Assembly (NCBI GenBank): GCA_051362555.1 | Contig: CM120647.1 | Coordinates: 19,320,651-19,384,650, forward strand | Direction: 5' to 3' | Source of the DNA: Lingula anatina | Lineage: Eukaryota; Animalia; Brachiopoda | Length of the DNA stretch: 64,000 nucleotides | Shown here: positions 9,267 to 35,362 of the stretch, piece after piece | Layout: the number at the start of each line of letters is the position of its first letter | Position numbering within the stretch: the first letter of the stretch is position 1 | Program-made: the position numbers and the translations under genes | The notes under the pieces: model-generated | What the model saw: only the letters and a program-made list of their open reading frames with translations | Database searches by the model: none | Told to the model about the DNA's origin: nothing

Positions 9267-9268
9267 CT

Positions 9269-10700: not shown

Positions 10701-10744
<44 letters not shown>

Positions 10745-12793: not shown

Positions 12794-13753
12794 ATGTCAG
12801 AAACTAGACACTCGGCAATGGTTGGCTCCAAACCTTACACTTTGGTTGACACCAACGATGGCCTTGAAACTGCTCTCAAATCCCTGAAAAGTGAGAGTAA
12901 AGAAGGACAAAATCTTGCCGTCGATGGCGAAGGCGATAATTATACCAGAAGAGGGACGATGTCTTTGCTTGCTATCGCAACAAGAAACCACGTGTTCCTG
13001 TTTGATATCATCAAGCTCGGAAAGCTCGTTTTTGATCGCGGGCTCCGCGAGATTCTGGAGGACCCCACACGCGAAAAGCTCATGTTCGACTGCCGTGAAG
13101 ACTCTGATATCCTTTGGCATCAGTTCCAAGTGAAGCTCGACGGCGTCCTGGATTTGCAGCTTTTGCAAATAATACATAGTAAGAGGGACAACTCGGATTT
13201 CTCGCCAATCGGTCGAAAGCGAGGTGCAGTAGCATTCTGCGAAAAGGTATTTGGTCTAATGCGTTGCCTTGAGGTTTATACCAACGATTTTGCCTCTATT
13301 CAAACAAAGAAATCTATTGGCTCAACCTTTCCGCTATCAACAAAGCAGTGGATGATCAGACCTTTACCCAGCAACATGATCAAGTACGCATGCGTCGACG
13401 TATCAACCCTGTTTGTTCTTTACGAAAAAATGAAAATAGGCGATCAAGACATGAGGCGGTTAAAGGTGGCATCGGCTCGTTACGTCGATTTAAAGCGTTC
13501 GATAATCGCACGCCGTTACGACAGTTATGAGAAAAATGGGTACCTGCCATTGAATATAATACCTCCAAAGGGATGTGTTGGTTTTTCGGCCTCTCAGTCC
13601 AATGAAGGCCCCACGTGTACCGGTTGTCAACGGCGCTTTCCGCGGGGAGCATTTAACGACACGGATCTTAGCAAAGGAGAGCAAAAATGTAAAGTTTGCT
13701 TGAGGGTAAAAATGGAAACAAGTGACTGGAAGATAAGAGGGAGGAGATTGTAA
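12794..13753 (+). CDS. DEDDy 3'-5' exonuclease (EXD1/Egalitarian-like) with C-terminal Stc1-like zinc finger, copy 1
   Basis: ExoI AVDGEG, ExoII FDCREDSDIL, DLQL, W..RP and ExoIII YACVD; then CTGC...FPR.AF...CKVC. Confidence 0.9.
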   Translation: MSETRHSAMVGSKPYTLVDTNDGLETALKSLKSESKEGQNLAVDGEGDNYTRRGTMSLLAIATRNHVFLFDIIKLGKLVFDRGLREILEDPTREKLMFDCREDSDILWHQFQVKLDGVLDLQLLQIIHSKRDNSDFSPIGRKRGAVAFCEKVFGLMRCLEVYTNDFASIQTKKSIGSTFPLSTKQWMIRPLPSNMIKYACVDVSTLFVLYEKMKIGDQDMRRLKVASARYVDLKRSIIARRYDSYEKNGYLPLNIIPPKGCVGFSASQSNEGPTCTGCQRRFPRGAFNDTDLSKGEQKCKVCLRVKMETSDWKIRGRRL

Positions 13754-14628
13754 CGTGCCGAAGATAACGCGAACAGTCTGCTACATTGATTTTTCTAAAT
13801 TTTGGTGATGATGACACTAAACCTCCGTACCTCCGTCAGTGAGGATTTGTTTTCACCTCTGTTTGTTAATTCGTCACCATCATATCTCAGTATAATTATA
13901 GATTCATGAAGTTTTCAGAAAATACTAAATGTAGGCAGTATTTTATAATCACGTTAGAACTAACCACACCCGTTTATAACCATTTTACTAGTACCACATT
14001 ACAGATGTTTGGTGTCAGTATAATTAAAGGATAAAACAACTCTTCACTTTGGCGGGATAGTTGCCATAAAACGGATTTTCCTTGGGTAACCAATGGATTG
14101 ACATTTAAAGTTAATAGTTTTTTGTAGTAATCTCTGAACGGGATGACAAATCTTTATTCAAAGTTAGTTGATTGTTTTCTTAAAGCGATTTTCTGTAATA
14201 AACCCTCAAGGCATAATAATTCTTCATTTTAAGATTGAAATATTAAAAATATTAAGGAGGATAGCCATCTATGAAGGTCCACATCGTCGAATGGCAAGCA
14301 AAGATGTCAGTATAATTGCTATAACCACCGTTTTGGTGGTAAAATGGAATTAATAATATTTCTGTGTGTTGTTTACAGTTTATTTAATAAAGTAGTTTGA
14401 ATCGCAAATGAAAAGTTGTTATCCATTTTATGTGTAAATATAATTGATTCATGTTTTGTCGGTTTTTGCTTTAAAATGTCTGCAATATTTGGTTGTATGC
14501 TTGGCCTTTTGTTAAAAAGGATTTGAAAATCATTATATATGTGCTTTTTAGCATAAACACATTTTCAATTAAGAGTTTTAGAAATATTTTAGAAAAACAT
14601 TGATATCATTCATGAATTAAAACTACTC

Positions 14629-14725
14629 CTACAGCTCATCCCTGGTGCATGGTTCCTCTTGTATAGAGCTACCCTCTCGTGGCAGGTTGAGAATGTTTGC
14701 AACTTTCTGCAGTTTATTCTTTTCA
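14629..14725 (-). pseudogene. Duplicated fragment of the RDEL terminal exon (see 60625-60810)
   Basis: Translates as KNKLQKVANILNLPREGSSIQEEPCTRDEL*. Confidence 0.85.
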
Positions 14726-15583
14726 CTTTTTGCTGGGAAAAGGTCCACTGTGGGTAAATCTGATCAAGGTAAACTTAGGTCTCATGACAAAAGGTCCACA
14801 TTTTCAGAAAAAGAAACCCTCCATTTGCATTTGCTATCTACGGGCCTGGTATCTTCTTAGTTCTGCTCGGCTTGCATTAATGGTCGTTGATCTTTGAACC
14901 CCTAGTGCCCACTTGCACATTTTTAGATGAATCTGTTCAAAGAGTAACTTATTAATTAATTAAGAAGTTGAATAACATTTTCTTTTGCTTAAATACTTCT
15001 TGGGACTATACCTCACACCTGTAGGTTAGAATTGGTTTCATAAATTTATCGAAAAGTCTCATTGTTAATACGGGGTGTGCTATGTTTTGTGATTTTCAGG
15101 TTGTTTTGAGGGAAAATAATAACCTGGTACCTTTTAGCTTAAAGTTTTCCATGACCTTTTTAAGTGAGCCTCAGCTTGTAAATGTGTTTCAAACGTAATC
15201 AAATTCGTTTACTATTCCAACAGTGCTTCCGTTTATTGTGAACTTTAGAAATGGATGGAAAATAGAAATAAAAAAGTTTAAGCCAAATATAGAACAGCCC
15301 ATATTTGTTTTCCTATAGAATTCTCGAAAATGGAATGTAAATGTCGTTCGAGATCGTGACCTCCATTTAAGGCTGTCAGAGGGGGGAATGGGGAGGGGAT
15401 GTCACCATTCACAGTCTCACGATAAATACAGTGTAAATAAAATCAAATATCACCGATAACAAATAATAAATCGATTAACAAGAATAAACAATCAAATGAG
15501 TGCTGATTCACAGCGTCATGGTCAATAATCTGACGTGTCTGGGATAGTGTGGAATAGATTTGATCAATCATTGATCACTGATT

Positions 15584-15875
15584 TCACCCATCCCCATCCT
15601 CCCGTCACTTGGTGGGTTTTGGGGAAATACATTCTTGTTTGTGATATCAATTATTTACGCATTCTTGTCTTTATAAAGGAGTTGAGATATCAATTCCCGA
15701 CAGTCTTTTTCGAAGAACTGATCAAAAGGTCACCCATCCCCATCCTCCCGTCACTTGGTGGGTTTTGGGGAAATACATTCTTGTTTGTGATATCAATTAT
15801 TTACGCATTCTTGTCTTTATAAGGGAGTTGAGATATCAATTCCCGACAGTCGTTTTCGAAGAACTGATCAAAAGG
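15584..15875. repeat. 146 bp tandem duplication (2 copies)
   Basis: tcacccatccccatcctccc...gaactgatcaaaagg at 15584 and 15730, nearly identical. Confidence 0.93.
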
Positions 15876-17364
15876 CAGTAGTTTCCTGTAGTCCACGGGC
15901 AGTCAAGCGATAGTCATAGGCGTCGACGTAGCATCGTAAAACAAGTTTTAGGGACACTGGTCTACATTTGTTATAAGGTGAATAAGGGTCATAAACTTTG
16001 TGTACGCAAGTATAAGCAGAGCAGTAAAAACAACAAAAAAAAATTTTTTTTGAGCTATACTTACTTATTAACTTATTTGATCATTTGGGAGATTTAAAAT
16101 ATATTTCCTTATTTCACGCATTTAGATATTTCAATTACAGTTAATTATGAATAAGCTAAATCCCGAGGGAAATCTTTAAAATCTACATTTGTTCTGAGAC
16201 AGACGAGAAGGTAAAAATGTGAGGGTTAGTTATTTCGAAGCTGAAAGGGTGAGGCAGAGGTACGTGACCCCCCCCCCCCCTCCCCGATCCTCCATAGCTG
16301 TGAATAATGGTACAAGTTATATTTGATAGTTTTCTACAACTTGATTTAAATGTGTACCTGAGGAGTTTTTAAATAAAGGCTGTCAAGTGTTTTACAATGA
16401 ATCATAAGTGTGTTGATATGATTTTGAGCTTATAAACTGATCAAATTAAGGGGGGCAAAAATGCATATTCATATTACCTGCATATTTCACGTCATATTGG
16501 TGTAAGAAATGATTTGTCATCATCTAAGGTATATCAACAGAGATTAATGAAAAAATATCAACCCAAAACATTTTTTAAAACATATTTTCAACTGAATTTA
16601 CATTTTATTCTCGTTATTCGAGTCAGATTTATCCAGTATATCCATGGAACACATATTCGGTATATAGGCTACAGGTACTGTTTATCCCTAGTTACTTGTT
16701 TACGTTCGAAGAAAGCTGGAGTTAATGGAACTTACGCGGAAACGTTAATCAAAATCTATGTCAACCTATTGTACTTTATAAAACCTATCAATAAAGCAGT
16801 AATGTCTTAACAATTAAAGCAAATACAATTATCAATAGACGTTAAATGTTTTCGGAGAACTGACCAAAAGCCAACCAACCTTTTTAATCGGTGTCTATGT
16901 CAAACTTTGAAGTATACACGGGAAGTCTAGTACAGTCATAGACCTTGCCTTAGCGTTATAAACTAGTTACAGTTTTAGGGACATTGGTGTGTACTCGTAC
17001 ATTGTTAGGTAAGATGGCGTTACAGAATTTGTAATACGAAATATTCTGTTAGGATATTGGTGATATTTTACGTTTTTCAAGCTATTTCATTGCTGGACTC
17101 CCGTTAATCCATTGATATTGGGAAAGATCTATACTTGATCGTTGTACATATTAACGATATTGAGTTATGGCTACAAAGAAAACAGTAGATATTCTTACGT
17201 AAAATTTTGTGAGAGAATTAATTCTTGATACGTAGCTTCCATTTTCGTATAATACTCTGTACACAAGGTCGTCCCTCTGATATACCAGTACGTGCAGTAA
17301 TGACGTACATTTAGATCTATCGCATCAAACATAAATTTGCACCTTGCGTCATAAGTACAATGAT

Positions 17365-17606
17365 CAGGACTACCCAACTACCAGACTCGGCACATAAGGA
17401 TCCTGAATTAACCGGTATATCGGACCACACTACTCGTTTTTAATCCCAGAACAAATTTTGTAGGACGACCCCGGGCTCATCCTGTCGGTGTTCTGACTGA
17501 TACTCCGAAATGCGATCTGTCACACACCTTGGAAAGGGGTAGTGTGGTCCGATATACCGGTTAATTCAGATCCGTATGTGCCGAGTCTGGTAGTTTGGTA
17601 GGCCTG
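17365..17606. mobile_element. MITE with ~70 bp TIRs (CAGG...CCTG)
   Basis: Near-perfect inverted arms (actaccagactcggcacata...ggaccacactac). ATGAT is duplicated on both sides, and the empty site is visible in paralogues at ~12760 and ~21293. Confidence 0.85.
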
Positions 17607-17776
17607 ATGATTTTCCCTTCCGAGATTTAACGAGTTCCCCGGGTAAGCAACATTTTCCCTCGATTTTACAACCTTAAATCTTCCTTTCCTGACACTAACT
17701 TTCACTCTGCAACAATTTTTCTTGCAATGTTTCTATTTTGTTTCTATTCCAGATCGACGGGTGATCTCAGAAATCC

Positions 17777-18856
17777 ATGATGTCCAAAAGTAAGGGACCA
17801 TCGGCCAGTTCACTTGGTGCACGTGGACCGAGGGCACATCGTGCAAAAGAGTACATGTACACTTTGGTTAACACCAAAGAGCGCTTAGATTCAGCCCTTG
17901 AAACCTTGAGAAGCGTGAGTGAAGAAGGTCCGAATCTAGCTGTCGATGGCGAAGGTGTTAATTATTCCAGAAGAGGAACGCTGTCTTTAATTGTCATCGC
18001 AACAAGAGATCACGTTTTCCTGTTTGATATCCTCAAGCTAGGGAAGCGTGTTTTTGATCGCGGGCTTCGCGAGATTCTCGAGGATCCTACACGTGAAAAG
18101 CTGATGTTTGACTGCCGTGAAGATTCTGATATCCTCTGGCATCAGTACCACGTGAAACTCGACGGTGTCCTGGATTTGCAGCTTTTGCAAATTATGTTTT
18201 GTAAGAGAGACAACTCGGATCTCTCGCCGTTTGGTCGAAACAGAGCTGCCCTTGCACCCTGCGTAAAGGTGCTTAGTTTGTTGCGTTGTCTTGAGCTTTA
18301 CACCGACGATGTTACGTGTATTGAAATAAAAAAATCTGTTGGCTCAACCTTCGTGCAATCACCAGAGCAGTGGATGGTCAGACCTATTCCCAGCGACATG
18401 ATCAAGTACGCATGTGTCGACGTATCAACCCTGTTTATTCTCTACGAGAAAATGAAAATGGGCGATCTAGACATGAGGCGGCTGAAAGTTGCATCAACGC
18501 GCTACGTCAGTCTGAAGCGTTCGATAAAAAAACGCCGTTATGACAATTTTGAGAAAAACGGGTACCTTCCACTTAATGTAATACCAGAAAAAGGATATGT
18601 CAATTTTTCATCCTATCAATCCTCTAAAGGCCCCGAGTGTGTGGGCTGTCAAAGACGCTTTCCGCGAGAAGCATTCACTAAAACACAGCTTAGAAATGGA
18701 GAACAAAAATGCAAAGTTTGCAGGAAGGTGAAACACAATATAGATGTCCAGAGAAACAAAGAAGAAAACTGCAAAAGTGATAGCTCTGAAGATGATAGTG
18801 ATACCCCCGAAGATGATACTTCCCTTTTGACCTCGGACGATGATTATTATGTTTAA
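17777..18856 (+). CDS. DEDDy exonuclease with Stc1-like zinc finger, copy 2
   Basis: Same intact Exo I/II/III motifs as copy 1, CVGCQRRFPREAFTKTQLRNGEQKCKVC and an acidic tail. Confidence 0.92.
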   Translation: MMSKSKGPSASSLGARGPRAHRAKEYMYTLVNTKERLDSALETLRSVSEEGPNLAVDGEGVNYSRRGTLSLIVIATRDHVFLFDILKLGKRVFDRGLREILEDPTREKLMFDCREDSDILWHQYHVKLDGVLDLQLLQIMFCKRDNSDLSPFGRNRAALAPCVKVLSLLRCLELYTDDVTCIEIKKSVGSTFVQSPEQWMVRPIPSDMIKYACVDVSTLFILYEKMKMGDLDMRRLKVASTRYVSLKRSIKKRRYDNFEKNGYLPLNVIPEKGYVNFSSYQSSKGPECVGCQRRFPREAFTKTQLRNGEQKCKVCRKVKHNIDVQRNKEENCKSDSSEDDSDTPEDDTSLLTSDDDYYV

Positions 18857-20824
18857 TTGGGATGCCAATGAATTTTCTTCGAAATATTAGTGGTTCTGGG
18901 GGTTTGGCTGGCCCTGTGGGAATGGGCGATTTTTTCTCAATATAAATTCTGCTATCTCCTCCTAGATCATTGGAATGAGGAGGAGGTTTTTGGGCTTGAT
19001 TGAATAGTGCTACTGGAGGTTTGGCTATCTCCGTGGGAGAATGTTTCTTTTCAACACTGCCATTGCTTTTATCTCCACCTAGGTTGTTAACGTAAAAACC
19101 TGGGGGGTATTAAGAGTATCAAGGGAGACATGCATAGACACTTTGAAATTTTAGTGTGGTTGGGGATAAGTTGTACCTGGTAGGTGGATGATTCTAATTT
19201 AACATTGTCCGTTCTGACATCTCCTGGACTGCTACATGTACGTGGAGGAACTTGAAATTTAAATGATTGAAAGAACTATCATCATCAGCATTTCGGAATA
19301 TTTTAAATGAACTTAGGATTGGGCGGTCTTGGGTGATGGATGACTCTTTTGAGGTTATATCTACCCACCGGCACCATCTACATCTGGAAATTGGGAAATA
19401 TAAACTGGAAGAGCGATAAGTATATATGTGAAGATGATACTGTTTTCCAATTATGAATTCTGAGAGAAAAGTATTGGACAATATATGTATCCGTTTAATT
19501 TCTTGAATATTTCCTATCGGTACATGTACTTGCAGGGTAATACTGAAAAACTATTAGGCCCTCTTTTAATACAGATATTACCAAAGAACAAGTTTTCTTA
19601 CTTTGCTGAGGTTGGTTCGTTGGCCGCTATGCTTGAGTCATGAAAAATAGTTTGAGCTTTTTAATTTTCTGTGAGAGCTTCCATGATTGAACAACATTGG
19701 ACATACTTTGCATATGTCAAGGTTTTCTCTTTAAGCATCGACAGGCGTACAGATTTTAATGCTATTTTGAACATTTTCTAGAACGTCTTAGAAGTGAATA
19801 AACTTTACAGACTGCTCTTTCGGTTTTCACAAGAAGGATAATTTTTTGTAAATGTTCTGGTATATTCACTTAAATATAATAGCTATGAAATATGAAAGAC
19901 TGAATTGACTAGATTTATCTCAAGGCGGGTAAATTTGGTGAAAAGGAGAAAATCATTCTTTTAGTATTTTTGGGATATAATAATTATCAAAAACGTATCT
20001 TAACACTGGATGAAATCATACTTTTTGTGTCTATTTTAACCGCACGTGCCGCAGGCAGACAGACTTTTAAACCACGCCTCCGTTGTTAAGGTCTTTGTTA
20101 TGAAGGAGCGGAGCAAAGTTACAAAGACGGCATATAGACTGGGTTCCCACAGATTTAGATCTATCCATAGGGATCAACCTAACTCCCTGGGGGTTCACGC
20201 CAAATTGCTAAATTGCGGAGGATTCTCACTAAGTGCTCTAAGTTATTTACAGTTTTTCAACTGATTTTACGTTATATTCTCATTATTCGGATCAGATTTA
20301 TCCAGTATATCCATGAAAAAAACATATTCAGTACATAGGCTACAAGCACTGTTTGTCCCTAGCTACTTGTTTACGTTCGAAGAAAGCTGGAGTTAATGGA
20401 ACTTACGCAGAAAGCTAAATCAAAATCTAGGTCAACCTATTATACTTTATAAAACCTATCAATAAAGCAATTATGGCTTAACAATTAAAGCAATACAATT
20501 ATCAATAGACGTTAAACTTTTTCGGAGAACTGATCAAAAGCCAACAAACCTTTTAATCGGTGACTTTGCCAAACTTTGAAGTATACACGGGAAGTCTAGT
20601 ACAGTCATAGACCTTGTCTTAGCGTCATAAACCAGTTACAATTTCAGGGACATTGGTGTGTACTCGTACATTGTTAGGTAAGATGGCGTTACAAAATTTG
20701 TTATACGATTGAATATTGGTTACACTAGTATTTTATGCATTTAATGCTATTTGACTACTGGACTCCCGTGAAGCCTTTGATATTGAGATAGATCAGATTC
20801 GCTTGATCGTTGTGCATTTGCCTA

Positions 20825-21032
20825 GATTACATTTCTATACGCCCCCGCACCAACACTCCCCCGCACCGATACTCCCCCGCAGTATTGATGCGGGGAAGCA
20901 ATGATGTGGGGAAGTATCGGTGTGGGGGAGTAACGGTGCGGGGATGTACAGGTGCGGGGAGTATCGTTGCGTATATAATACAAAAAATAGCTAAGGGGAG
21001 TAACGGTGCGGGGGAGTATCGACATGACTCCC
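20825..21032. mobile_element. MITE-like insertion with internal ~15-16 bp minisatellite (ggggagtatcggtgc) in both orientations
   Basis: 8 bp TSD tttgccta at 20817-20824 and 21033-21040, with imperfect TIRs. The paralogous empty site is at ~12499. Confidence 0.8.
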
Positions 21033-21319
21033 TTTGCCTACAGGTAACGATAATAAGTTATGGTTTCAAAGTGAACAGTTAATTTTCTTACGTATAGTGT
21101 TGACGCTTGTGTCAAGAGTTTCAGTTTGATATTTCGTGATATTTTGTGAGAGAGAGAGTGAATTCTTGATACGTAGCTCCCATAATCGTATAGATACACT
21201 GTACAAATGGTCGCCCTTTTGATATACCAGTACGTACAGTAATGACATACAATTAGATCAAACATAATTTCGCCACTTCGCGTTATAAGTACAATGATTT
21301 TCCAGATCGAGAGGAAACC

Positions 21320-21437
21320 ATGGCAGAAATTAAACACTCGGAAATAACCAAGGAAGCGCCAAGGACGCCGAATGTTGAAGTTAAAGGGTCCGCTCTGGGA
21401 GACACCAAGAGCAGCGTTGCAGAGAGTGTGAAAAAAG
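21320..21437 (+). CDS. Exonuclease copy 3, first coding exon (MAEIKHSEITKEAP...VKK)
   Basis: Its position matches the copy 1 ATG (MSETRHS vs MAEIKHS). It ends at a phase-1 AAG|GTAGGG donor that joins the TTTCAG acceptor at 27538 in frame. Confidence 0.7.
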
Positions 21438-21917
21438 GTAGGGATCTACGGCACACGTATCAATACTAGAGGTGGGCAAATGACAAATTTTTTTCAAACA
21501 AGATTCTGTGGCCATTTTGGCTGCTAAGCACAAATCCGACAATAATTTTTACTAAGGTTAAATATTTATATTGGTTTCTGCAATTTGTTTGTGAAAAAAG
21601 GCGGGAATGGCTTTTTAACAATATTTTCACGGAAAATATGCATAAAAAATTATGTGTAATACGTCTCTCCATATGTTTTGGGAGTTGCAGAGTTCAAATA
21701 TTAGCATATTCAAGACAATAACATTTGTAGGGTGATATCTTTAAAATATGTTATTTAAAACAAACATATACAGAAAATATACACTTCGAGTCAAAGATAA
21801 ATGCAAATAATGGCCATTTTGTACATACTGAATTTATGGATAACAGTTTGGTTTTAAAAACAATGCTGAAAATACCTTCATGCATGTGTACCAACTTATG
21901 TCATGCTGTATAAGGGA

Positions 21918-22165
21918 ACATTCCCGCAGATATTTGGATCGAACTATCTCTTTTGGGAGTCTCACTAAATTGCTATCAACTAAACCGGCTTAAATGTCTG
22001 TCACGCCTAGTAAAGATGTTAGGAGGTAATTATCTTTACCCCCTAGCTGACTCGGTAGCCGTGACAGACATTTAAGACGGTTTAGTTGACAGCAATTTAG
22101 TGATCGGTCCAACCCAGAGAGTTAGACCGAACCAGATGGATCGATCTAGGTATGGGAACCCAGTT
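21918..22165. mobile_element. Palindromic MITE, related to 35363-35547
   Basis: Inverted arms cactaaattgctatcaactaaaccggcttaaatgtctgtcacg / cgtgacagacatttaagacggtttagttgacagcaatttagtg. Confidence 0.65.
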
Positions 22166-22334
22166 TAATTTTCCTTTTCTTTGGAACAGGTAAAACTTTG
22201 TCAGGTGGCATCAACTTTTAACAACCTCTAACCTCTTGACATTAGTACTTAGTTTCAGTTGCGTAGTTTAAGAGAATCTCACCACCACCATGGAAGCACC
22301 AGTAAGAGATACACTGAGACCAGAAAACACTGTA

Positions 22335-22819
22335 AAGCCCCCGTCACGCTTGTGTCAAGAGTTTAAGTTTGATATTTATTCGGAATCAGCAGTAATCACG
22401 CAGAACGAGTCGGAATGAACAATTTTCAAAATTGGCTCCACATACGGTGGGAAATTTCAAATTGACCATAAAATCTTGTGAACCTGCCTGGAATGATTTG
22501 TGCACATTTTGGGTGTATTAACTCTCAAATGCAGCTCGAATGTACTTGACACACATTAGGAATGCCGAAAGAATATTAAGAATGTGACTCATAGTGCAGT
22601 TATAATACACTTCGAATGCCATTCGATATTTCTCCACTTGGAATGCACTTCGAAAGTTTTGAGCACGAGCAAAACATTTGGACGGGACGCAAGAATGGGC
22701 CCATACATTTGGAATATGCTCAGAATTTTTAGAACGCACTTCGAATATCCAGGAATAAACAAAAAATTTTCATTCCGACGACATTCTAGCTCATTTCGCC
22801 TCTAGTGTGACTAGGGTAT
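22335..22819. mobile_element. Harbinger-like non-autonomous element rich in GAATG/CATTC motifs
   Basis: Ends aagcccccgtcacg / gtgtgactagggtat between TAA triplets; the TIR is imperfect. Confidence 0.45.
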
Positions 22820-22834
22820 AAATGAAGACATTAA

Positions 22835-23498
22835 GGATATTGTCACCCTTCGCCTAAAACTCCTTATTTATTGCCTTACATACATTATTTTGGGTAATAA
22901 ATAAAGCTTCGGTATTCAGTGATTATATAAATTAACATTTACACGCGTCATCTTACTGGTGACGTTATAATTGCGATTTTGGGGTAAAAACTGAAATTTG
23001 TTTTACCCAGAACACCCATGATAACCGCCAATTTAATGATATCATTAAGTACTCCAAAACGCTGCCAGCGATTTTTCTTAGTTTAGATTTTATCGTTGAT
23101 AAAGCAAAATAATACCTTTGTTTAATGAAAATCTGCAATTACAAGCTCATAACTCCATAACAAAAGCATTTAAACCAAAACGCTGGCACAGGATTGTAGC
23201 TCATGCCCCTGCGGACCACTATGTCTTTTTTGTGATAAAATCGTGTTTAGGGATGAAATTACGCCCCATACAGATTACTATCTCACCTCATAAAAGAAAG
23301 GTGTCAAATAGACGATTAAAGCTTTGAGTTGCCTATGCTTATACATTGCACCGAAAAATATAAATGCCGATATTTCATATTTTCGAGAGTTTTTTCATTG
23401 TTTTGAATTAGCACAAAGATAGATACATTTTTGAATAATTAGATGAAGGAAAAAACTCATCTTCGGCATCTGGATGATAATAAAGGGTTATAATGTCC
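22835..23498. mobile_element. TTAA-flanked Kolobok-like MITE, copy A
   Basis: TTAA on both sides and TIRs GGATATTGTCACCCTT / GGACATTATAACCCTT. An inverted homologue lies at 36400-37025. Confidence 0.8.
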
Positions 23499-24209
23499 TT
23501 AATGTTCTGCTACTGAGTGTACTTCTATAAATATTCCTGTATGTAACTAACATTATGACTACTCTACATGGCAAGACTGTACACTTCATGAGAACCTTGA
23601 ATAATATACCATATTTGTTATATTATTGTTTTTCCCAATTTAAAAAACCTTAGTTGCATAAAAATTAGTATTTTGCACATAAAAATGGTGATTTAGGGTG
23701 GTTTTTACCTCAAAATGACCAAAAATTCCTCTTTTTAAATAATTTTACCCAAATTGAAATAACCCAACATAAGTGATTTATCTATTTTACGCTCATTGAT
23801 CATAAAATCATATGGTTAGACATATAACAAGCCATATTTGAACTGATATTTAAAGATTTACATGAGAACTCTATGATTTGATGGGGAGCCATTTTGAAAA
23901 AATCGCTTGATACCAATATAAGATGTAATCTGAAACAAAAAAACTTATTAGATTTGTATAGCCAAATTTGTATAGCCAAAATAACCACAGAATCCACTTG
24001 TTTGAAATCCCCCCCCCCCCAAAAAAAAAAAAAAAGAAGCTTTCATTTGCCCATCCCTATCAATACTGCACCATACAATAGTTTATTTCATGTGATCAGG
24101 CTTGAAAATATAACATTTTCTGCCCTTACCTAATTTCCTTTACGGCCCTAAAGGAAATTGACCCAATACCCCGTATACGATCCTATAGGACAAAAGTTTC
24201 TATCAGGAT

Positions 24210-27200
24210 CATCATCATCATCATCATCATTTAGAGCCTATAGTGTTCCACTGTTGGACAAAGGCCTCAGCATGCTTTTTCCATTGTTTCCTATCCTGAG
24301 CCTCAGATTTCCAGTTTGGCCAAGGTTTCTTCTTCCAAGACTTCCAGTAGTCATCTAATTCATCCCTCCATCGTTTGACCGACCTTCCTCTTTTTCTTTC
24401 TCCATACCTTGGGGTCCATTCTGTAAGCCTGATTGTCCACCTATTGTCCTTCATTCTTTTGACATGTCCTGCCCACCTCCATTTCATTTCTTTAACTGTG
24501 AGTAGTACGTCCTTGACTTTGGTCTGTTCACGTAACCATACATTCGTTTTCCACTCTCTTGGATTGATGTTCAACATAATTCTTTCCATCTTTCTCTGAG
24601 ATACTTGTAGCTTGTGTTCCATGGAGGCATTCAGAGCCCAGGTCTCTGAACCATAGGTGATTGCCGGCAGCACACAAGCATTGAACACTTTCTTTTTCAG
24701 GCAGGTAGGAAGGTTGCTCTTGAAGATGTCATTGTGCTTCCCATATGCTGCCCATCCTGCTTTTATCCTTCGTTGGATTTCTTTCTCCAGTGTTCGATCA
24801 CTAAGGCTGAACCGTTGCCCAAGGTATATATACTCTTCCACTGCTTCTATCTCTTTGGTGTTGACTTTCACTGTGCAAGGGGTGGTTAGTGGTCCAAACA
24901 TCACCTTTGTCTTGCTGGTGTTCATCTTTAGCCCACTTTTTGCGCTTTCATCTGCTAACGCCTGTAGCATTTCTTCTAGGTCTTTTGCAAACCGTCTGCA
25001 AACCTAAGGTGATTGAGCCTGGTACCGTCTATGTTTATGCCCTTGTCTTGCCAGTCTAGATCCCTGAATATACGTTCCAATGCTGCTGTGAACAGTTTAG
25101 GAGAGATTGTATCTCCTTGGCGTACACCTTTCTTGATCCTGATCTTATTGGAGGTCTTGTGTAGTTTGACTGTTACAGAGCTATTGGTGTATATGTCTCT
25201 GAGGACGTCTACGTATCTATCTTCGATCCCTAGATCTTGCAGGGATGCCAGTATATACTGGGTTTCTACTGAGTCGAAGGCTTTTTCATAATCAACGAAT
25301 GCTACACATAGTGGAATGTTATACTCGAGACATTTCTCTTTGAGCTGGTTGACAGTGTGCATATGATCAGTAGTGGTGTACTGGCCTCTGAAACCTGCTT
25401 GCTCCTTTGGCTGCGCTTCATCTAGTTGTCTTGTTAGCCTTTCGGTCAATATTTTGGTGTAAATCTTGTACAGATTAGAAAGTAGGTAGATGGGTCTGTA
25501 ATTCTTGATGTCTTTCCTATTGCCCTTTTTGAACATTATGATCATGTTGGCGTTCTTCCATGCTACAGGAATTTCCTTCAGATGTAAGCACTTTGTGAAG
25601 AGCCTGGCTAATTCCTGAGATAGGATATCTCCTCCTGCTTTTACCATTTCTGCTTTGATGTTGTCATTTCCTGCTGCCTTTCCGTTCTTCATTTTCTGGA
25701 CTGCTGACTCTACTTCCCAAGCTGTTATGTCTGGTACATCGCATGCCTTTGTTGAGATTTCTATTCCCTTGTTGCTGTCATACAACTCTCCATAGAATTC
25801 TTCTACTCGTTCTAATATTTGGTCTTGTGTGGTGAGCTCATTTTCATCTTTGTCTAGAAGAGTCAGCATTCTATCCTGCCCTAGTTGAAAGGATCTCTTT
25901 GCTCTTTTCATGCTCTTTCCATTTTCGATGGTCTCTGCTATCTTCTTCATGTTCTGATTCCTGATGTCTTTCCTTGCCTTCTTCTTGATGGTCTTATCCA
26001 GTTCTGCATATTCGATGTTGTTTCTGATGTCCCTGTTGTTGTTTACCTCCGTTTTCTTCATCATCCGTCTTTTCTTCATGAGAATCCTCGTTTCTGTTGA
26101 GAGCTTTGAGTCCTTCATTTTACTGGCCGGTGCGACTTCTGATGCACATTCTAGGATGGTGGTCGTTATTCTATCGTTCATTTCATCTACTCCATCTTCA
26201 CCTTCTAGCTCTAGTGCACTGAATCTGTTCGTTAGGAGGATTTGGAACTCTTCTTTCTTTATGACCAGTTGCTCGATACTAGGTCTCTTTGATGGATTTG
26301 ACAGACATTTCTGTCTGTCCTTCCTGACATTGATCCTAATCACTCCCATAACTGCTCTGTGGTCACTTCCCGCATCCAGTCTGTTTAGCACTTTCACATC
26401 CGTGAAGATGTTCGGTCTGTTTGTCATGATGTAATCAATTTCGTTTCTTGTACATCCATCTGGGCTTTGCCATGTCCATCTTCTTGATATCTTCTTCTTG
26501 TAGACGGTATTCATGATCTTCAAGTTATTTGCTGTCGCCCATTCAATCAGTAAGTCTCCTCTTTCATTCCTCTGCCAAATTTCCCTGTGGCACGCTCTTG
26601 TTCGTCTGACTTTATCCCGATCTTGGCGTTGAAATCACCCATGACTATGTGGTAGTGGCAGTCTGTTGTCAACTGACGCTGTACTTCTTCATACAGTTGT
26701 TCTACTTCTTCATCTGGTCTGCTTGATGTTGGTGCATATACCTGAATGAGTTTCATTGAGAATCTCTGATTCACTTTGAGCTTGACTGTAGCCACCCTTG
26801 CGCTAATTTGCTTTACCTCGATGATGTTTTTGCTTAGCGCCTTGTGTATCAGAAATCCAACTCCTTGTTGGCCATTTGAAGCATTTGTATGGTGCAATAT
26901 ATGTCCGCTATTTAAGGTAATTAAGCGTTCTTCCGCTCGCCTAATTTCTGACAAGCCTGTCACATGCCATTTAACTCCGGTGTCCTGGAGTTCAGTTTCC
27001 AATTCTGCAAGTCTTTCATTGTTCTTCACAGTTCTAATTTTGTAAGTAATGATGTTGAAATTTTTCACTGGTCTTGATGTTCGGTGATCCTTGCTGCCCC
27101 AGAGATTCTTAGCACCTCCCGCACTCTGCTGGTCTGAACCAGGATCACCTCCTAAGTTCAGGGCGTTTGTGCGGCTGGGTACTGGAGGCCGTGTGTTTGT

Positions 27201-27215
27201 TGGTTGTTTCATGCT
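24210..27215 (-). mobile_element. RTE-clade non-LTR retrotransposon (APE + RT), nearly full coding length, two frameshifts
   Basis: APE motifs GLSEIRR, QVYAPTS, MGDFNAK, NEIDYI and GSDH; RT motifs GVRQGDTISP and LRFAD; C-terminal YGSETW and KWRWAGH. It has a (GAT)n tail and a 14 bp TSD gtttctatcaggat (24196-24209, 27216-27229). Confidence 0.95.
24227..27212 (-). pseudogene. RTE ORF (endonuclease-reverse transcriptase) split into ORFs 26547-27212, 24976-26523 and 24227-24970
   Basis: Consecutive ORFs are collinear parts of one APE-RT protein, with breaks near 26560 and in the FADD motif near 24990. Confidence 0.9.
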
Positions 27216-27538
27216 GTTTCTATCAGGATGTCTTACAGAATTCTTATGGAGTCCCATAAAGACCTGAAGCAGATTTATAGAGTCCTCTAGGAGTCCAGTA
27301 GCGTCCCACAGAGTCCATAGGACACCCTATAGTATATTTTAATAAGGGTGATGCCCATTCAAGCCAGTTGTCTAGCCAGCAATTTCAAAATATTGTATTT
27401 CATCTGAAAGAGTGGACCTTTTCGCTCCATTACCTAACTTGAGAAATGAAATAGGAACTAGATTAGAAGTTGGAAAGTTTAAAAATATAACATTAGCAGA
27501 AGCCACTCACTAGAAAATAATCAAATGCTCTATTTCAG

Positions 27539-28794
27539 AAAACGCCCTAGTTTTAAAGGAGGAAGCAGATGGCGCCAAACCATGCACTTTGGTTGACACT
27601 ACAGAGAGCCTACAGTCTGCAAGTGGAGCACTCAGAGGTATGGGTACAAAAGACCCAAATCTTGCCGTCGATGGGGAAGGCGGTGTCTCCGAGTCCTACA
27701 CTATGGTTGACACCAAAGAGGGCCTTGAAACTGCACTCAAAACCCTGAAAAGTGTGAGTAAAGAAGAACCAAATTTTGCCTTCGATGGGGAAGGCAGTGC
27801 CTCCGAGTCTTGCACTATGGTTGACACCAAAGAGGGCCTTGAAACTGCACTCAAAACCCTGAAAAGTGTGAGTAAAGAAGGCCCAAATCTTGCCGTTGAT
27901 GGGGAAGGTTCTGATTATTCCAGAATGGGGACGCTGTCTTTACTTGCCGTCGCAACAAGAGATCACGCGTTCCTGTTTGATGTAATCAAGCTCGGACAAC
28001 TCGTTTTTGATCGCGGACTCCGCGAGATTCTCGAGGATCCCACACGCAAAAAGCTGATGTTTGACTGCCGCGAAGATTCTGATATCCTCTGGCATAACCA
28101 CCAAGTGAAACTTGACGGTGTCCTAGATATACAGCTTTTACAAGTTATGTATAGTAATAGAGATAACTCGGATCTCTCGCCATTTGGTCAAAAACGATGT
28201 GCCATAGCACCTTGCGAAAACGTATTTGGCTTGCTGCATTGCCTTGAGCACTACACCGACGACGTTACATCCATTAGAATAAAGAAATCGGTTAGGTGGT
28301 CATTTTTTCTATCAACAGAGAAGTGGATGGACAGACCCCTACCTGCGGACATGATTAAGTACGCATGCGTCGACGTATCAACCTTATTTGGCCTCTACGA
28401 AAAAATGAAAATGACGAGCTATTTGGACATGAGACGGTTGGAGATTGCATCATCGCGCTACGCCGATCTGAAGCGTTCGCTCACCGTACGCCGTTTTGAC
28501 GATTTTGAAAAAAATGGGTACCTGCCACTACTTATAATACCTCCAAAAGGATCTGTTGGCTTTTCGGACTATCAGTCCAATAAAGGCACCGAGTGCACGG
28601 GTTGTAAAAGGCGTTTTCCGCGGGAAGCGTTCACTTACACACAGCTTAGAAAAGGAGAACAAAAATGCAGAGTTTGCAGGAAGGTGAAAAACGACAATGA
28701 TGTTGAGAGTAACAGAGAAGACAATTGGGCACGTGACTGCTCTGACGACAGTGCTGTATACTACTCCACGGATGAAAATGAGGATTATTATTAG
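27539..28794 (+). CDS. DEDDy exonuclease with Stc1-like zinc finger, copy 3 main exon, with triplicated N-terminal 38-aa segment
   Basis: Intact Exo motifs (AVDGEG, FDCREDSDIL, YACVD) and CTGC...CRVC. The frame is open back to the acceptor at 27538. Confidence 0.9.
27586..27910 (+). repeat. 114 bp in-frame tandem repeat x3
   Basis: T(L/M)VDT.E.L..A...L......PN(L/F)A(V/F)DGEG occurs three times. Confidence 0.9.
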
Positions 28795-31045: not shown

Positions 31046-33326
31046 TAGTCGAGCAGCCAGAACGCTAACCCTGCAATGTTTTTTCCTGTAAACTTTTTTC
31101 GCTGAAATGCATTCTTTAGGTCGAGAGAAGTAAAATTAGCTTGGTTGCTATTTCCGAGTCGTTTTTTGAGCATTTTTCAATATGGCCGCCAATTTATGAG
31201 AAAAAATAGAAAAACGAGCAGAAGTTGCCGGGTAAACTTTATTGACAGCTTTTTCGAACGTGTATCCTATCAGGAAAGCACAACAGTACTAGTGAGTACA
31301 CTTAAGCCCGTTGCATATAGCAAAATAGCCAAAATGGACGTCAAAACATATGGCAGAAAGTAAAAACAGCTGCAAAATAAGTTCGTTTTTTGGAAATTAA
31401 GTCTTATTAAAAACATTTCCGCCTTTTCTATTTATGTCCATTATAATAATTTGTGAGTCGTGATCCTAAACTCTCAGAAACTGCTTATTTGACATTAATC
31501 AGATGGTGGCAGACGGTGCCATCTCCTGAGAGTCCATTTGCCACTCCGACGAGCCCCATAGTCAAAGCTTGCTATGTTATATCTTGCAAGCTTTTTTAAA
31601 AGAAATTGTTTCATCTGGGTTACAAACTTAGAGAAGCTTATATTACGAGATATTTACAATTTTTCAAAATTCAAGATGGCCGTCAATTTGTTATGTGAAT
31701 AGCGAGAGCCATACATTCAAATAAAAAAGTAATGATTCACTCCATTGTTCATCATTGCATATTTATATTTATATCCATGCAAAGTTTTTGTTCTGAAACT
31801 ATTCATGAAACTTAAGATTTTTGGTTCTGTATACCAATGTCTTAAACAAATGATTCGTATGAAAATAATCCAGTTTAGAGCTTCAAAATAACAATCACTT
31901 TGAAAAATATGGCCTCAAAGATTTTAATGGCTGTCAGTATACCTGTATAACCAAGAGATTTGTAAGATGTTTTACTTATTGACACTTTAAAATGTAAAGT
32001 GAAAAAGTCCAGTAATAAGAAAAACTAGAAATGTTGTTATATACTGATGAAATATTCTTACACGTGCCAATCTCAATAAAAAGAATGGGAAGTTTTAAAG
32101 CTTAATTTTATGTCCATACTGAAAAAGTTATGATAAAGATATAAAATTAAAATATTAAGGTATGATCAATATAAAAACAAAAACAAAAAAAAAATAAGGT
32201 TAATATTCTGACAAAAGTTAAATTAAATTACACTCATCCCCTCCCACCCCCCGTCCCCACCTTGGTTGGACTCCGTGTAAATATGAGAGTCCCGATTGCA
32301 GATTAACATTTTGGACTCCCTGTGCCCAAATTCCTGCAGAACCCCCTGTAGGCCCTTAATAAAATTTCTGTATTAAAAAGAGAACTTACAGTACGTAATG
32401 GTCAGTCCTATCAATGATCCTCTTTTATAGAGTCTTAGTATAACTGTACCTTACAAGTACACTTTGTCAATAAATAACAGGGTTGGATATATTTTATTAT
32501 ACGCCGAATTATCAGTTTAAAACGTAATTTAACTGCTTTTTTTACCTTTTTTGGGCATGTTTTAGCGGTCATTTGAAATGCGGAATACCATGCACTTTAA
32601 ACCCGACTCTTTGCTATGTTACATAATTATTCATTTATAATATAATATAATGATATCATAATATATTTTTATATTATTGACGGCCATCTTGAATTTTGAA
32701 AATTGATCAATGTTCCATATCTAGCTTCTGCCAAGAAGCCCAAATTAAATTGGCTTTTATACTCCCAAAGTGTTAAATTCTTTTTAAAAATTCAGGGAAT
32801 ATCATTTTAAGTATTTGACTATGGGACCCGGAGAAGTAGCAAACAGACTCTTGGGGGGTTATTGAACTGTCAGATAAGCTTAGTCCAAGAATTTCGGGTC
32901 ATGACTAACAAAATATTATAAGTAACATAAATATAAAAAGGGGATATGGTTTTAATAAAAATAAATATGCAAAAAACAAACTGATTCTGCAGCTTTTATC
33001 ATTTTCTGCCTTATGTTTTGACGGCCATTTTGGTTTGTTGCTAAGTGGTACGCACTTAAGCGTATTCAATAGTACTGTTGTGCTCTCCTGATAGGATACA
33101 CGTTCAAAAAAGCTGTCAATAAAGTTTACCCGGCGACTTCTGGTCGTTTTTCTATTTGTCCTCATAAATTGACGGCCATATTGAAAAATGCTCAAGGTCT
33201 CGGAAATAGCAACCAAGCTAATTTTGCTTCTCTCGGCCTGAAGAATGCATTTCAGCAAAAAAAAGTTTAGAGGAAAGAACATTGCAGGGTTCGACAATTG
33301 GGCCTATGGGAGTGGCGACTCGACTA
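31046..33326. mobile_element. Non-autonomous DNA transposon with ~400 bp TIRs, Academ-like
   Basis: TAGTCGAG...CTCGACTA termini and long diverged inverted repeats (~31066-31480 vs ~32880-33292), visible as mirror ORFs 31145+ and 33297-. The TSD is imperfect (gtt/ctt). Confidence 0.75.
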
Positions 33327-34118
33327 CTTGTCAACACAAAATATTCAGATTTTCCGGGACAGTGGTATACACTATAAGGTAAGACAGTGAACAAAATAAC
33401 GCATAGGCATTCCTATTAGATATTAGTGGGGCTACGACTTAGATTTTAAAAGACGTCGGTTTAGTTATGCACACCTTGGACATAATAATGAGTACACACG
33501 TTCTTATACCTTCCTTGGGATCTAACTGTTTCCTCTGGCCATTCCACAGTCATCGTTTTTCCTATCTAGGATTGTCGCTCCAAAAATTCACTAAGAAAAA
33601 AGGCTACTCACCAAACATTGCCCGGCCCAAACCGACATTTTAATTCGGTGTTTTATTTAATTTCTAATTAAATTATTCAGTTCTAATTGACTGGTTTCCA
33701 TGTTTTCCTGTGTATTTCAAAGGGAAATATCGACATCAAGTAGTAGAGGGGTTTTGTCGTTTTAAGGGACATAGAAGTAGCCTTACAGGATGTGTAAATG
33801 TGTTAGGGATCATGACTGTGGGGAAAATGCTCAGTGGATGGTGGATGGTGCTCAGTCTCATGGTACAGTGTATATTACACCGAGGAAGGTCACAGAGTAG
33901 CAAAGAGTTTTGTAATGTCTGGCTTCCATTTAGTGTAGAAAGTGAACATTTTAAACTAATGATTATTACCAACAGACTACACAGATGAATTTCCATCAGA
34001 ATACTTTATTGGAGACTCTATTACAAATGTTCATCTTTCATGTACACAAGCTTTTATACGTAATGCATAGTTTGTATCAATAACACATTTACAAGTAGCT
34101 TCTTTTCCAGACCTAATC

Positions 34119-35362
34119 ATGTCAGAAGTTAAGTACTCCGTAACGATCAAGAAAGAGAACACCGAGACCAGCCTTGCAGGGTGCGGGAGAGAAAGTAAGA
34201 GAGGCGCTGGGGCAAGCGTTTTCAGTGCTGAAGAAAAACCCGCCATTTCGGAAAAGATCAATGAATGCTTTATTGGAAGGAATGAATCAGAGAATAAAAG
34301 AAGAAAGAGACGAGATAAATAGTGTAGCGGGACCCTCTGGTATTGATAAACCCCCGCAAGATGGCGCCACACCTGTCATGTATACTTTAGTTGACACCAA
34401 AGAGCGCCTTGAACATGCTCTTAGAACACTGAGAAGCGTGAGTAAAGAAGGCCCAAATCTTGCCGTCGATGGCGAAGATTCTTCCAGAAAAGGAACGCTG
34501 TATTTAATTGCTATCGCAACAAGAGACCATGCGTTCGCGTTTGATGTCACTAAGCTCGGAGAGCTCATTTTCGATCGTGGGCGTCGAGAGATTCTCGAGG
34601 ACCCCACACGCGAAAAGCTGATGTACGACTGCCGTGAAGATTTATGATATCCTCTGGCATAACCACCACGTGAAACTTGACGGCGTCCTGGATCTGCAGC
34701 TTTTGCAAGTGATGCATAGCAAAAGGGACAGCTCAGTTCTGTCGCCAATCGGCCAAAAACGCGGTGATGTTGCAACCTGCGAAAGAGTGTATACTGTGGA
34801 GGATTGCCTTGAGCTTTATATCAACGATGCTAAGTCCCGTCAAAGAAGGAAATATATTGGCCTAGGTTATGTGCTATCAGCATGGCATTGGAGAAATAGA
34901 CATTGTTTCATCCCCGATGACAAGTTTGCGTGCATGGACGTACCAACTCTTTTTATCCTCTACGACAAAATGAAAATGGACGATCAAGACATGAGGCGGT
35001 TGAAAATTGCATCAGAGCGTTACGTTGATCTGAAGCGATCGATAACCGAACGCCGTTATGATTATTTTGAAAACAATGGATACCTGCCACTTAATGTAAT
35101 ACCTGAAAGACGATGTTTTGGTTTTTCAGCCTGTCAGTCCTCTGAAGGCTCTGAGTGTATGGGCTGTAAAAGGCGCTTTCCACGGGAGGCATTCACCAAG
35201 ACGCAACTCAGAAAAGGAGAACAAAAATGTAGAGTTTGTAGAAAGGTGAAAAACGACAAAGATGTCCAGATTAACAGGGAGAGAAACTGGGAAAGTGATG
35301 ACGAAGAGCGCTGGGTACCAGGACAGCGCTGGGCACCAGAAATATATATAGACGAACACTAA
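34119..35362 (+). pseudogene. Exonuclease-zinc finger copy 4, frameshifted
   Basis: Homology is spread over ORFs 34119, 34174 and 34634. There is a +1 insertion at ~34643 in ExoII, ExoIII Y is replaced by F (FACMD), and there is a deletion after DGE. Confidence 0.85.

What the first reader, a model, noticed from the sequence alone, without database searches (positions are those of the whole stretch)
12794..35362. Tandem family of catalytically intact EXD1/Egalitarian-like exonucleases fused to a Stc1-like zinc finger
Seen: four paralogues in the same orientation share a DEDDy domain, with all acidic residues and the ExoIII YxxxD intact in copies 1-3, followed by C-x2-C-x3-FP-x2-AF-x3-(Q/D)L-x6-C-x2-C. 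Known: EXD1 (piRNA biogenesis) and Egalitarian are nuclease-fold RNA-binding proteins; the insect and mouse EXD1 proteins studied are catalytically inactive. Fission yeast Stc1 uses a similar zinc finger to link Argonaute to the H3K9 methyltransferase complex. These ORFs show no EXD1-type N-terminal Lsm domain that I can recognise. Inference: a lineage-expanded, probably active exonuclease with a possible Argonaute-linking finger, possibly acting in small-RNA trimming or in anti-transposon/antiviral defence.
Basis: partly seen in the sequence, partly recalled or inferred. Interest (0 to 1): 0.75.

Follow-up and report, generated by a model that had tools for sequence, protein, structure and literature searches.

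The report
Unnamed zinc-finger exonuclease gene array
Four side-by-side copies (three intact, one broken) of a gene in a lamp-shell genome encode a predicted RNA-degrading enzyme with a zinc finger; the same design occurs in corals, molluscs, starfish, a fungus and protists, and databases call it 'EXD1-like' although it lacks the features that define EXD1.

Summary
Four same-strand paralogues encode a DEDDy exonuclease, a conserved linker and one C4 zinc finger. The window is Lingula-like: copy 2 is 96% identical to a L. anatina protein. Copies 1-3 keep all five catalytic residues and are under purifying selection (dN/dS about 0.29). Copy 4 is a likely pseudogene. Copy 3 has a missed first exon at 21320-21437.

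The design is not lineage-specific. It occurs in cnidarians, molluscs, a nemertean, echinoderms, a basidiomycete, a pelagophyte and a diplonemid, with separate expansions in several animals. It is not EXD1 or Egalitarian: no Lsm or winged-helix domain, and AU tests reject grouping with the stand-ins I had. The best structural match is trypanosome RNase D, an active exoribonuclease whose fingers bind RNA.

The finger resembles Stc1 finger 2 but is single, below the Pfam cutoff, and has Phe where Stc1's Ago1-binding K100 maps, so the Argonaute link is unsupported. Expression evidence is weak. Best reading: an apparently undescribed RNase D-type subfamily, likely active 3'-5' exoribonucleases evolving by birth and death, plausibly in RNA defence.

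The parts
12794..13753 (+). Copy 1 CDS, 319 aa, one coding exon: DEDDy domain, GYLPL linker, C4 finger (13616-13699), short tail
   Evidence: nearest L. anatina protein is P0004 (77%; sister in the tree)
17777..18856 (+). Copy 2 CDS, 359 aa, one coding exon: DEDDy domain, linker, C4 finger (18638-18721), acidic tail
   Evidence: 96% identical to L. anatina P0001; AlphaFold2 model of its core has pLDDT 92
21320..21437 (+).
   Evidence: its 39 aa are identical to the N-terminus of L. anatina P0003; splicing is predicted, no junction read was seen
21438..27538 (+). Predicted 6.1-kb intron of copy 3, holding a broken LINE (24227-27326, - strand)
   Evidence: GT..AG ends and frame continuity; RT and endonuclease Pfam hits
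27539..28794 (+). Copy 3, main coding exon: 114-nt tandem repeats of the first exonuclease segment (27650-27908), intact DEDDy domain, C4 finger (28594-28677), acidic tail
34144..35362 (+). Copy 4, likely pseudogene: frameshift at 34641, further indels, ExoIII Y to F; finger still intact (35156-35239)
   Evidence: RNA depth 0-1.5 over the coding bins in 4 runs
9795..12819 (+). 5' non-coding block of copy 1, duplicated with the gene; homologous blocks lie upstream of copy 2 (16058-17364) and copy 3 (19112-21345); none was found for copy 4
   Evidence: self-blastn, 75-87% identity: DNA-level tandem duplication of whole gene units

Best explanation
These are tandem duplicates of a stand-alone RNase D-type (DEDDy) gene with a single C4 zinc finger, and copies 1-3 likely encode active 3'-to-5' exoribonucleases whose basic linker and finger likely grip the RNA while the two-metal site removes nucleotides from its 3' end. 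Shown here: the domain order, intact catalytic residues, purifying selection, tandem duplication with upstream DNA, one decayed copy, and the same design across several eukaryote groups. Predicted: the RNase D fold and a treble-clef-like finger resembling Stc1 finger 2. Inferred: catalysis, an RNA substrate and an RNA-binding role for the finger, by analogy with T. brucei RNase D. Least certain (about one in three): that the substrates are viral, transposon or small RNAs. That step rests on repeated independent expansions, frequent decay of copies and one fusion into a MOV10-type helicase.
For: Catalytic residues are kept family-wide: ExoI D 76 of 85, E 79 of 85, ExoII D 85 of 85, Y 82 of 85, ExoIII D 78 of 85. 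All five are intact in 57 of the 71 finger-bearing representatives with those columns filled. dN/dS is 0.29 for each pair of copies 1-3 (bootstrap ranges within 0.21-0.48), and the median is 0.23 over 277 of 325 pairs of metagenome loci. The model (pLDDT 92) matches T. brucei RNase D best (Foldseek E 5.5e-13; VIA Z 21.5, rmsd 2.9 over 224 residues, tied within 1 with Egl at Z 20.6). In that enzyme the C-terminal zinc fingers raise RNA binding and cleavage (PMC7797062, passages). Linker and finger are net basic in copies 1-3 (+3 to +8). Several paralogues share a contig-length value in Montipora, Mya, Acanthaster, Patiria, Exaiptasia and Oculina (a proxy for the same scaffold), and several of these sets branch within their own lineage. 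Four of 37 close metagenome loci have broken frames, and L016 and L033 hold more than one copy. A Namystynia relative sits inside a MOV10-type helicase.
Against: No activity or substrate was measured. Drosophila Egl has the same intact motif and its residues are dispensable for RNA binding and function. DEDDy domains also act on ssDNA (WRN, polymerase proofreading domains appear among the matches). The TbRND fingers are CCHC knuckles, a different fold, so the analogy is functional only. No positive selection appears in the pairwise ratios (maximum 0.46), which does not favour an arms race. RNA support is thin: depth 1-5 in three unstranded runs of one study, about none in three other runs, no splice joints, and reads differ from the window and may come from other paralogues. 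14 of 71 finger-bearing representatives have lost catalytic residues.
Confidence: 0.5

Rival explanations
1. The finger docks the nuclease on an Argonaute or PIWI protein, as Stc1 docks on Ago1, making it a small-RNA 3' trimmer.
For: The finger's top Foldseek match is Stc1 2LUY (E 0.63, prob 0.72, rmsd 1.6 over 35 columns), aligned to Stc1 residues 84-126, the stretch holding K100 and R116, which are needed for Ago1 association (PMC2875855, passages). 32 of 58 members hit Pfam Stc1 at E up to 0.1, and multi-finger member P0318 passes the cutoff (51.2 bits). The R116 position is Lys in 131 of 146 homologues. The relatives EXD1 and Mut-7/Nibbler work in small-RNA pathways (EXD1; Mut-7: recalled).
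Against: One finger, not the tandem pair. All window copies are below the Pfam cutoff. The K100 position is Phe in 144 of 146 (numbering inferred from the alignment). Among distant representatives the R116 position is K or R in only 35 of 82. VIA ranks IQUB first (Z 3.2) and Stc1 49th (Z 2.3), all within noise. The finger profile's best PDB sequence match is SIRT3 (E 0.11), and Stc1 is not listed.
Confidence: 0.12
2. As in Egalitarian, the intact active site is incidental and the protein works as an RNA-binding adaptor.
For: Egl is the best PDB sequence match of the family profile (112.5 bits; EXD1 102, TbRND 97) and keeps all five residues without needing them. Catalytically altered paralogues recur in Lingula (P0003, P0005), Mya, Acanthaster and Patiria.
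Against: The five residues are kept in most members from animals to fungi and protists (57 of 71). No Egl winged-helix or EXD1 Lsm partner-binding domain is present.
Confidence: 0.15
3. It is a 3'-5' exonuclease for single-stranded DNA that clears cytosolic or retroelement DNA.
For: The DEDDy fold includes DNA-acting enzymes (WRN Z 18.0, polymerase exonuclease domains), and treble-clef fingers can bind DNA (general knowledge; Rad14 appears among weak matches).
Against: The closest sequence and structure matches all handle RNA (TbRND, Egl, EXD1, RNase D, Rrp6), and fusions in relatives are to RNA-processing domains (MOV10 helicase, CCCH and CCHC fingers, a TUTase-like domain).
Confidence: 0.12
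4. The genes are passengers of a mobile element or virus, and the copies arose by transposition.
For: The conserved part is intronless in Lingula and in 26 of 37 close loci. DEDDy ORFs are carried by bdelloid retroelements (PMC5408684, passages). An LTR element and a LINE lie in the cluster. Giant-virus DEDDy proteins share the fold at 21-23% identity.
Against: The copies were duplicated with their upstream non-coding DNA, and copy 3 has a spliceosomal-type intron. The LTR element and the LINE are separate insertions. No relative was found in viral contigs or prokaryote genomes. The tree broadly groups copies by host lineage.
Confidence: 0.05

Closest known systems
Trypanosoma brucei RNase D (TbRND; PDB 7C42/7C45)
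   Same: Stand-alone DEDDy domain with intact active site, a short linker and C-terminal zinc finger(s), of similar size; best structural match (Z 21.5, 25% identity).
   Different: Its fingers are four CCHC knuckles that read U-tails of mitochondrial guide RNAs; here there is one C4 finger. It was not in my trees.
Egalitarian (Drosophila; PDB 9UJU/9RVY)
   Same: Best PDB sequence match of the family profile; all five DEDDy residues kept.
   Different: Egl is about 1000 aa with N-terminal winged-helix/LOTUS-like domains and a dynein light chain site. No winged-helix domain is found here, and Egl is not described with a C4 finger in the passages read. AU test rejects an exclusive clade with a partial krill Egl (p 0.022).
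EXD1 (mouse, Bombyx; PDB 5FIQ)
   Same: Related exonuclease core (59 bits single sequence, 102 bits profile; Z 19.0); source of the database name 'piRNA biogenesis protein EXD1-like'.
   Different: EXD1 lacks the DEDD residues, has an N-terminal Lsm domain that binds TDRD12, and a C-terminal dimer hook. The window proteins have the residues, no Lsm, and a finger. AU test rejects an exclusive clade with EXD1-like P0433 (p 0.007).
Stc1 (S. pombe; PDB 2LUY; Pfam PF12898)
   Same: The finger has a similar predicted fold and the F-[ST]-x-x-Q pattern of Stc1 finger 2.
   Different: Stc1 is a non-enzymatic tandem-finger adaptor between Ago1 and CLRC. Here there is one finger, fused to a nuclease, below the Pfam cutoff, with Phe at the K100 position.

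Membership tests
DEDDy / RNase D-type 3'-5' exonucleases | ExoI DxE, ExoII D and ExoIII YxxxD | tested here: met
   copies 1-3; copy 4 has F for Y and a frameshift
DEDDy / RNase D-type 3'-5' exonucleases | RNase D fold; PF01612 above cutoff | tested here: met
   (the fold is a prediction)
DEDDy / RNase D-type 3'-5' exonucleases | metal-dependent 3'-5' nuclease activity and substrate | not testable with these tools
   needs an in vitro assay
EXD1 orthologues | N-terminal Lsm domain | tested here: not met
   no Lsm hit at E up to 1 in the window ORFs; copies 1 and 2 have under 30 residues before the exonuclease domain; copy 3's extension is mostly repeats of the exonuclease start (its first exon was not scanned with Pfam)
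EXD1 orthologues | loss of the DEDD residues (mouse, Bombyx) | tested here: not met
   residues intact
EXD1 orthologues | exclusive clade with animal EXD1 | tested here: not met
   AU p 0.007 for 17 family rows plus P0433 among 43 rows. Caveats: P0433 is EXD1-like only by its best PDB match (93 bits against 77 for Egl), no vertebrate or insect EXD1 was in the tree, and the groups were named after the first tree
EXD1 orthologues | C-terminal dimerisation hook; TDRD12 binding | not tested
   the structural alignment to 5FIQ ends at model residue 201; no complex was predicted
Egalitarian | N-terminal winged-helix/LOTUS-like Egl domains | tested here: not met
   no WH_Egal hit in window ORFs or 58 members, whereas P0251 scores 179.5 bits
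Egalitarian | exclusive clade with Egl | tested here: not met
   AU p 0.022; one partial Egl sequence only, so weak
Egalitarian | helical exonuclease-adjacent domain | tested here: inconclusive
   VIA aligns model 1-282 to Egl 530-806 at rmsd 4.2; the helix after the exonuclease may correspond
Stc1 family (PF12898) | tandem pair of fingers (8 Cys); Pfam gathering score | tested here: not met
   one finger; 13-19 bits against 24.8; only multi-finger P0318 passes
Stc1 family (PF12898) | fold of a single Stc1 finger | tested here: inconclusive
   Foldseek rank 1 but E 0.63; VIA Z 2.3, rank 49
Stc1 family (PF12898) | Ago1-binding residues K100 and R116 | tested here: not met
   K100 position F in 144 of 146; R116 position K in 131 and R in 4 of 146; mapping inferred from one pairwise alignment
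Stc1 family (PF12898) | binds Argonaute and an H3K9 methyltransferase complex | not testable with these tools
TbRND-type RNase D | CCHC zinc knuckles after the exonuclease domain | tested here: not met
   the finger is C4; no zf-CCHC hit in the window copies

The most novel reading that the evidence does not exclude
This is an ancient, undescribed eukaryotic RNA-defence nuclease, not seen in vertebrates or insects in these searches and repeatedly amplified in marine invertebrates. It degrades viral or transposon RNA ends together with silencing machinery, using a Stc1-type finger as the docking module, with catalytically dead paralogues acting as decoys or adaptors.
Probability: 0.2. Interest if true: 0.75.

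Novelty: new variant of a known kind. Interest (0 to 1): 0.4.

Why it matters
Genes of this family are annotated as 'piRNA biogenesis protein EXD1-like' in coral, mollusc, echinoderm and brachiopod genomes, so a piRNA role can be read into expression data for what is a different, probably catalytic protein. Recognising it as its own subfamily gives a small, single-domain-plus-finger candidate RNase that is easy to express and assay and has members in the laboratory anemone Exaiptasia. Its repeated expansion and decay makes it a reasonable candidate effector in invertebrate antiviral or anti-transposon defence. No new chemistry or system is shown.

Tried and rejected
No whole genome is held, so Lingula's own EXD1, Egl and PIWI genes and the total copy number could not be searched. 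No RNA run was listed as a holder of the stretch; nine same-label raw-read runs were offered and six laid. Viral contigs: 18 and 12 pattern matches, none a relative. Prokaryote genomes: 13 matches, none a relative. The Atlas search with the finger alone gave no usable hit. The search for longer proteins (374-2000 aa; 125 hits, 120 listed) returned no protein with an Lsm annotation and one partial Egl. Rfam and tRNA scans of the window were empty. Earlier scan findings: none by sequence or words. The careful mixture-model tree did not finish and the quick one was returned. A single origin of the finger is not shown: the label needs 22-23 changes on the 167-row tree, partly because truncated proteins count as finger-less, and the finger-bearing branch has only 88/76 support. 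No complex prediction was run. The structural paper on Stc1 and a comparative review of RNAi proteins, both recalled, are not held; the review may mention this domain pairing. Supplements of the papers read were not opened. I rejected 'copy 4 frameshift is an assembly error' because it carries four separate indels and motif losses.
Full report
Observation. The window holds four same-strand ORFs of one family, at 12794-13753, 17777-18856, 27514-28794 and 34144-35362. Each has a PF01612 exonuclease domain above Pfam's cutoff, a GYLPL linker and a C-x2-C-x20-C-x2-C finger. ExoI DGE, ExoII DCRED and ExoIII YACVD are intact in copies 1-3. The source is Lingula or a very close brachiopod: copy 2 is 96% identical to L. 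anatina P0001, and the five best of 82 hits are Lingula proteins.

Gene anatomy. Copies 1-3 were duplicated with 1-3 kb of upstream non-coding DNA (75-87% identity), so they arose by DNA-level tandem duplication; no such block was found for copy 4. What looked like an orphan upstream block at 19112-21345 is the 5' end of copy 3. A coding exon at 21320-21437 matches the first 39 residues of P0003 exactly and joins in frame, through GT..AG, to 27539, giving a predicted 457 aa protein. The intron holds a broken LINE. Copy 3 also carries 114-nt tandem repeats of the exonuclease's first segment. Copy 4 has a 6-nt deletion, a +1 frameshift at 34641, a +1/-1 pair at 34916-34921 and ExoIII Y to F, so it is likely a pseudogene. 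dN/dS is 0.29 for each pair of copies 1-3 at dS 0.53-0.56, and 0.31-0.45 against copy 4. The duplications are therefore old, and the decay of copy 4 is relatively recent.

Family range. The architecture is not a Lingula invention. Named homologues with the finger come from anthozoans (Actinia, Exaiptasia, Montipora, Orbicella, Dendronephthya), bivalves (Mya, Pecten), asteroids (Acanthaster, Patiria), a nemertean (Lineus), a basidiomycete (Earliella), a pelagophyte (Chrysophaeum) and a diplonemid (Diplonema). Mytilus members lack the finger. A profile search of 1.84 billion representatives gave 439 hits at E up to 1e-30. Of the best 150, 83 carry the finger, and 57 of the 71 of those with all five catalytic columns filled are intact. 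The Atlas's three nearest clusters are eukaryotic, two mostly Basidiomycota and one mostly Echinodermata. No vertebrate or insect name appears among the named finger-bearing hits, but most hits are unnamed, so absence is not shown. Several paralogues share a contig-length value in six other named animals (a proxy for the same scaffold). Among 37 close metagenome loci, 26 hold one uninterrupted ORF, 4 have broken frames, and L016 and L033 hold more than one copy; the other loci are partial or finger-less. Pairwise dN/dS among the 26 has median 0.23 and maximum 0.46 (277 of 325 pairs kept). The pattern is birth-and-death under purifying selection, with no sign of positive selection at this resolution.

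Relation to EXD1 and Egalitarian. Against the PDB the family profile scores Egl 112.5 bits, EXD1 102 and T. brucei RNase D 97, with Rrp6, Nibbler, EXD2 and WRN at 42 or less. EXD1 is defined by an Lsm domain, a dimer hook and loss of DEDD (PMC4712191, passages). Egl is defined by N-terminal winged-helix domains (PMC13186709, passages). Neither domain is found here. On a tree of 167 of 185 exonuclease domains (18 dropped for under 80% coverage) the 8 Lingula rows form one branch (SH-aLRT 100), each window copy pairs with a L. anatina protein, and EXD1-like and Egl rows fall outside. On 43 rows the branch between the family and the EXD1-like rows has 97/89 support. AU tests reject an exclusive clade of 17 family rows with EXD1-like P0433 (p 0.007) or with partial krill Egl P0251 (p 0.022). 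These stand-ins are few: P0433 is EXD1-like by best PDB match only, and the groups were named after the first tree. The database name 'EXD1-like' therefore looks like a best-hit label.

Structure. The AlphaFold2 model of the copy 2 core has pLDDT 92. Its best matches are T. brucei RNase D (Z 21.5), Egl (20.6), 5ZO5 (19.1), EXD1 (19.0) and E. coli RNase D (18.7). TbRND is an active two-metal exoribonuclease whose C-terminal CCHC fingers raise RNA binding and cleavage (PMC7797062, passages); it is the best functional model. The caution is Egl, which keeps all five residues although they are dispensable for its known function (10.1101/2025.08.03.668247, passages).

The finger. Folded alone (pLDDT 83), its top Foldseek match is Stc1 (2LUY; E 0.63, rmsd 1.6 over 35 columns). 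VIA puts IQUB first and Stc1 49th, all at Z 3.2 or less. Pfam Stc1 is hit weakly by 32 of 58 members (best E 1.4e-4). Among the further proteins scanned (66, 61) only P0318, with six fingers, passes the cutoff. The finger is thus probably of Stc1 type. Stc1's association with Ago1 needs K100 and R116 (PMC2875855, passages). Mapping these by the alignment (offset inferred from C93), the K100 position is Phe in 144 of 146 homologues and the R116 position is Lys in 131 of 146, but K or R in only 35 of 82 distant representatives. A single finger lacking one of two key residues, with a look-alike in an axonemal protein, does not carry the Argonaute inference. The acidic tails of copies 2 and 3 recall Stc1's acidic C-terminus (recalled), but finger-less relatives have such tails too.

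Expression. Six raw RNA runs with the same species label were laid, 6-30% of each read. Runs X7 and X8 gave depth of about 1-5 over the coding parts of copies 1 and 2 with several flanking bins at zero; X1 and X4 gave none. X7-X9 gave about 1-5 over copy 3 and 0-1.5 over copy 4, X2 under 1, while repeat-rich intergenic bins were as deep or deeper. No splice joint was seen. Reads differ from the window, and 2 of 15 listed differences in copy 2 match only paralogue P0002. Low expression of the family in some samples is likely but not shown for each copy.

Mechanism. Most likely, copies 1-3 are active RNase D-type 3'-5' exoribonucleases whose basic linker and finger hold the RNA (confidence 0.5). 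A defence role is the best guess for why unrelated animals keep amplifying and losing copies, and one diplonemid-lineage relative is embedded in a MOV10-type helicase, but this step is inference from a single transcriptome record and a copy-number pattern. Rivals: RNA-binding adaptor (0.15), Argonaute-docked trimmer (0.12), DNase (0.12), mobile-element passenger (0.05; no relative in viral contigs or prokaryote genomes; only 21-23% identical giant-virus fold matches).

Novelty. Ten full-text searches listed no paper that describes this subfamily or the pairing of a DEDDy domain with a Stc1-type finger. 'Stc1 domain' with 'exonuclease' gave 0 papers. One coral genome paper mentions a down-regulated 'homolog of Exd1' without identifying it (PMC6385260, passages); I cannot tell whether it is this family. 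Also read as passages: PMC5408684, PMC8490990 and PMC12579938. Subscription papers, and a recalled comparative review of RNAi proteins that is not held, may cover it. Verdict: a real, apparently unnamed subfamily of a well-known nuclease class, a new variant of a known kind, interest 0.4.

Noticed in passing
window 1-9798: Ty3/gypsy-like LTR retrotransposon on the - strand (protease, RT, integrase) with 468-nt direct repeats 99.8% alike at 1-468 and 9331-9798, so probably recent; pol is interrupted near 3650-3920 beside a 137-nt internal duplication. It abuts the upstream block of copy 1.
   Followed up: partly
window 24227-27326: Frameshifted LINE (endonuclease plus RT) on the - strand inside the predicted intron of copy 3.
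   Followed up: partly
window 37940-59873: About 15.5 head-to-tail copies of a 1.41-kb unit, 98-99% identical, with no Rfam or tRNA hit and no Pfam hit in the three short ORFs tested; nature unexplained.
   Followed up: partly
window 17359-17612: MITE-like 250-nt foldback element inserted in the 5' region of copy 2, with many partly matching RNA reads from copies elsewhere.
   Followed up: no
window 31067-33291: Long inverted repeats (about 430 nt, 84%) spanning 2.2 kb between copies 3 and 4, probably a DNA transposon remnant.
   Followed up: no
protein P0253 (Namystynia karyoxenos): A family-type exonuclease with intact motifs and a degenerate finger is inserted between the beta-barrel and the ATPase domains of a MOV10-type helicase; two transcript isoforms of one record.
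   Followed up: partly
protein P0318 (unnamed, groups with Mya): Family member with six tandem fingers that passes the Pfam Stc1 cutoff, showing that the finger can be amplified as a module.
   Followed up: partly
proteins P0003, P0005, P0068, P0069, P0072, P0073, P0076: Paralogues in Lingula, Mya, Acanthaster and Patiria have lost catalytic residues separately while keeping the finger, suggesting repeated birth of pseudonucleases.
   Followed up: no
loci L039-L041, L046: Finger-less relatives in metagenome contigs carry a different conserved C-terminal domain (HNDWYT motif) and an acidic, aromatic tail.
   Followed up: no
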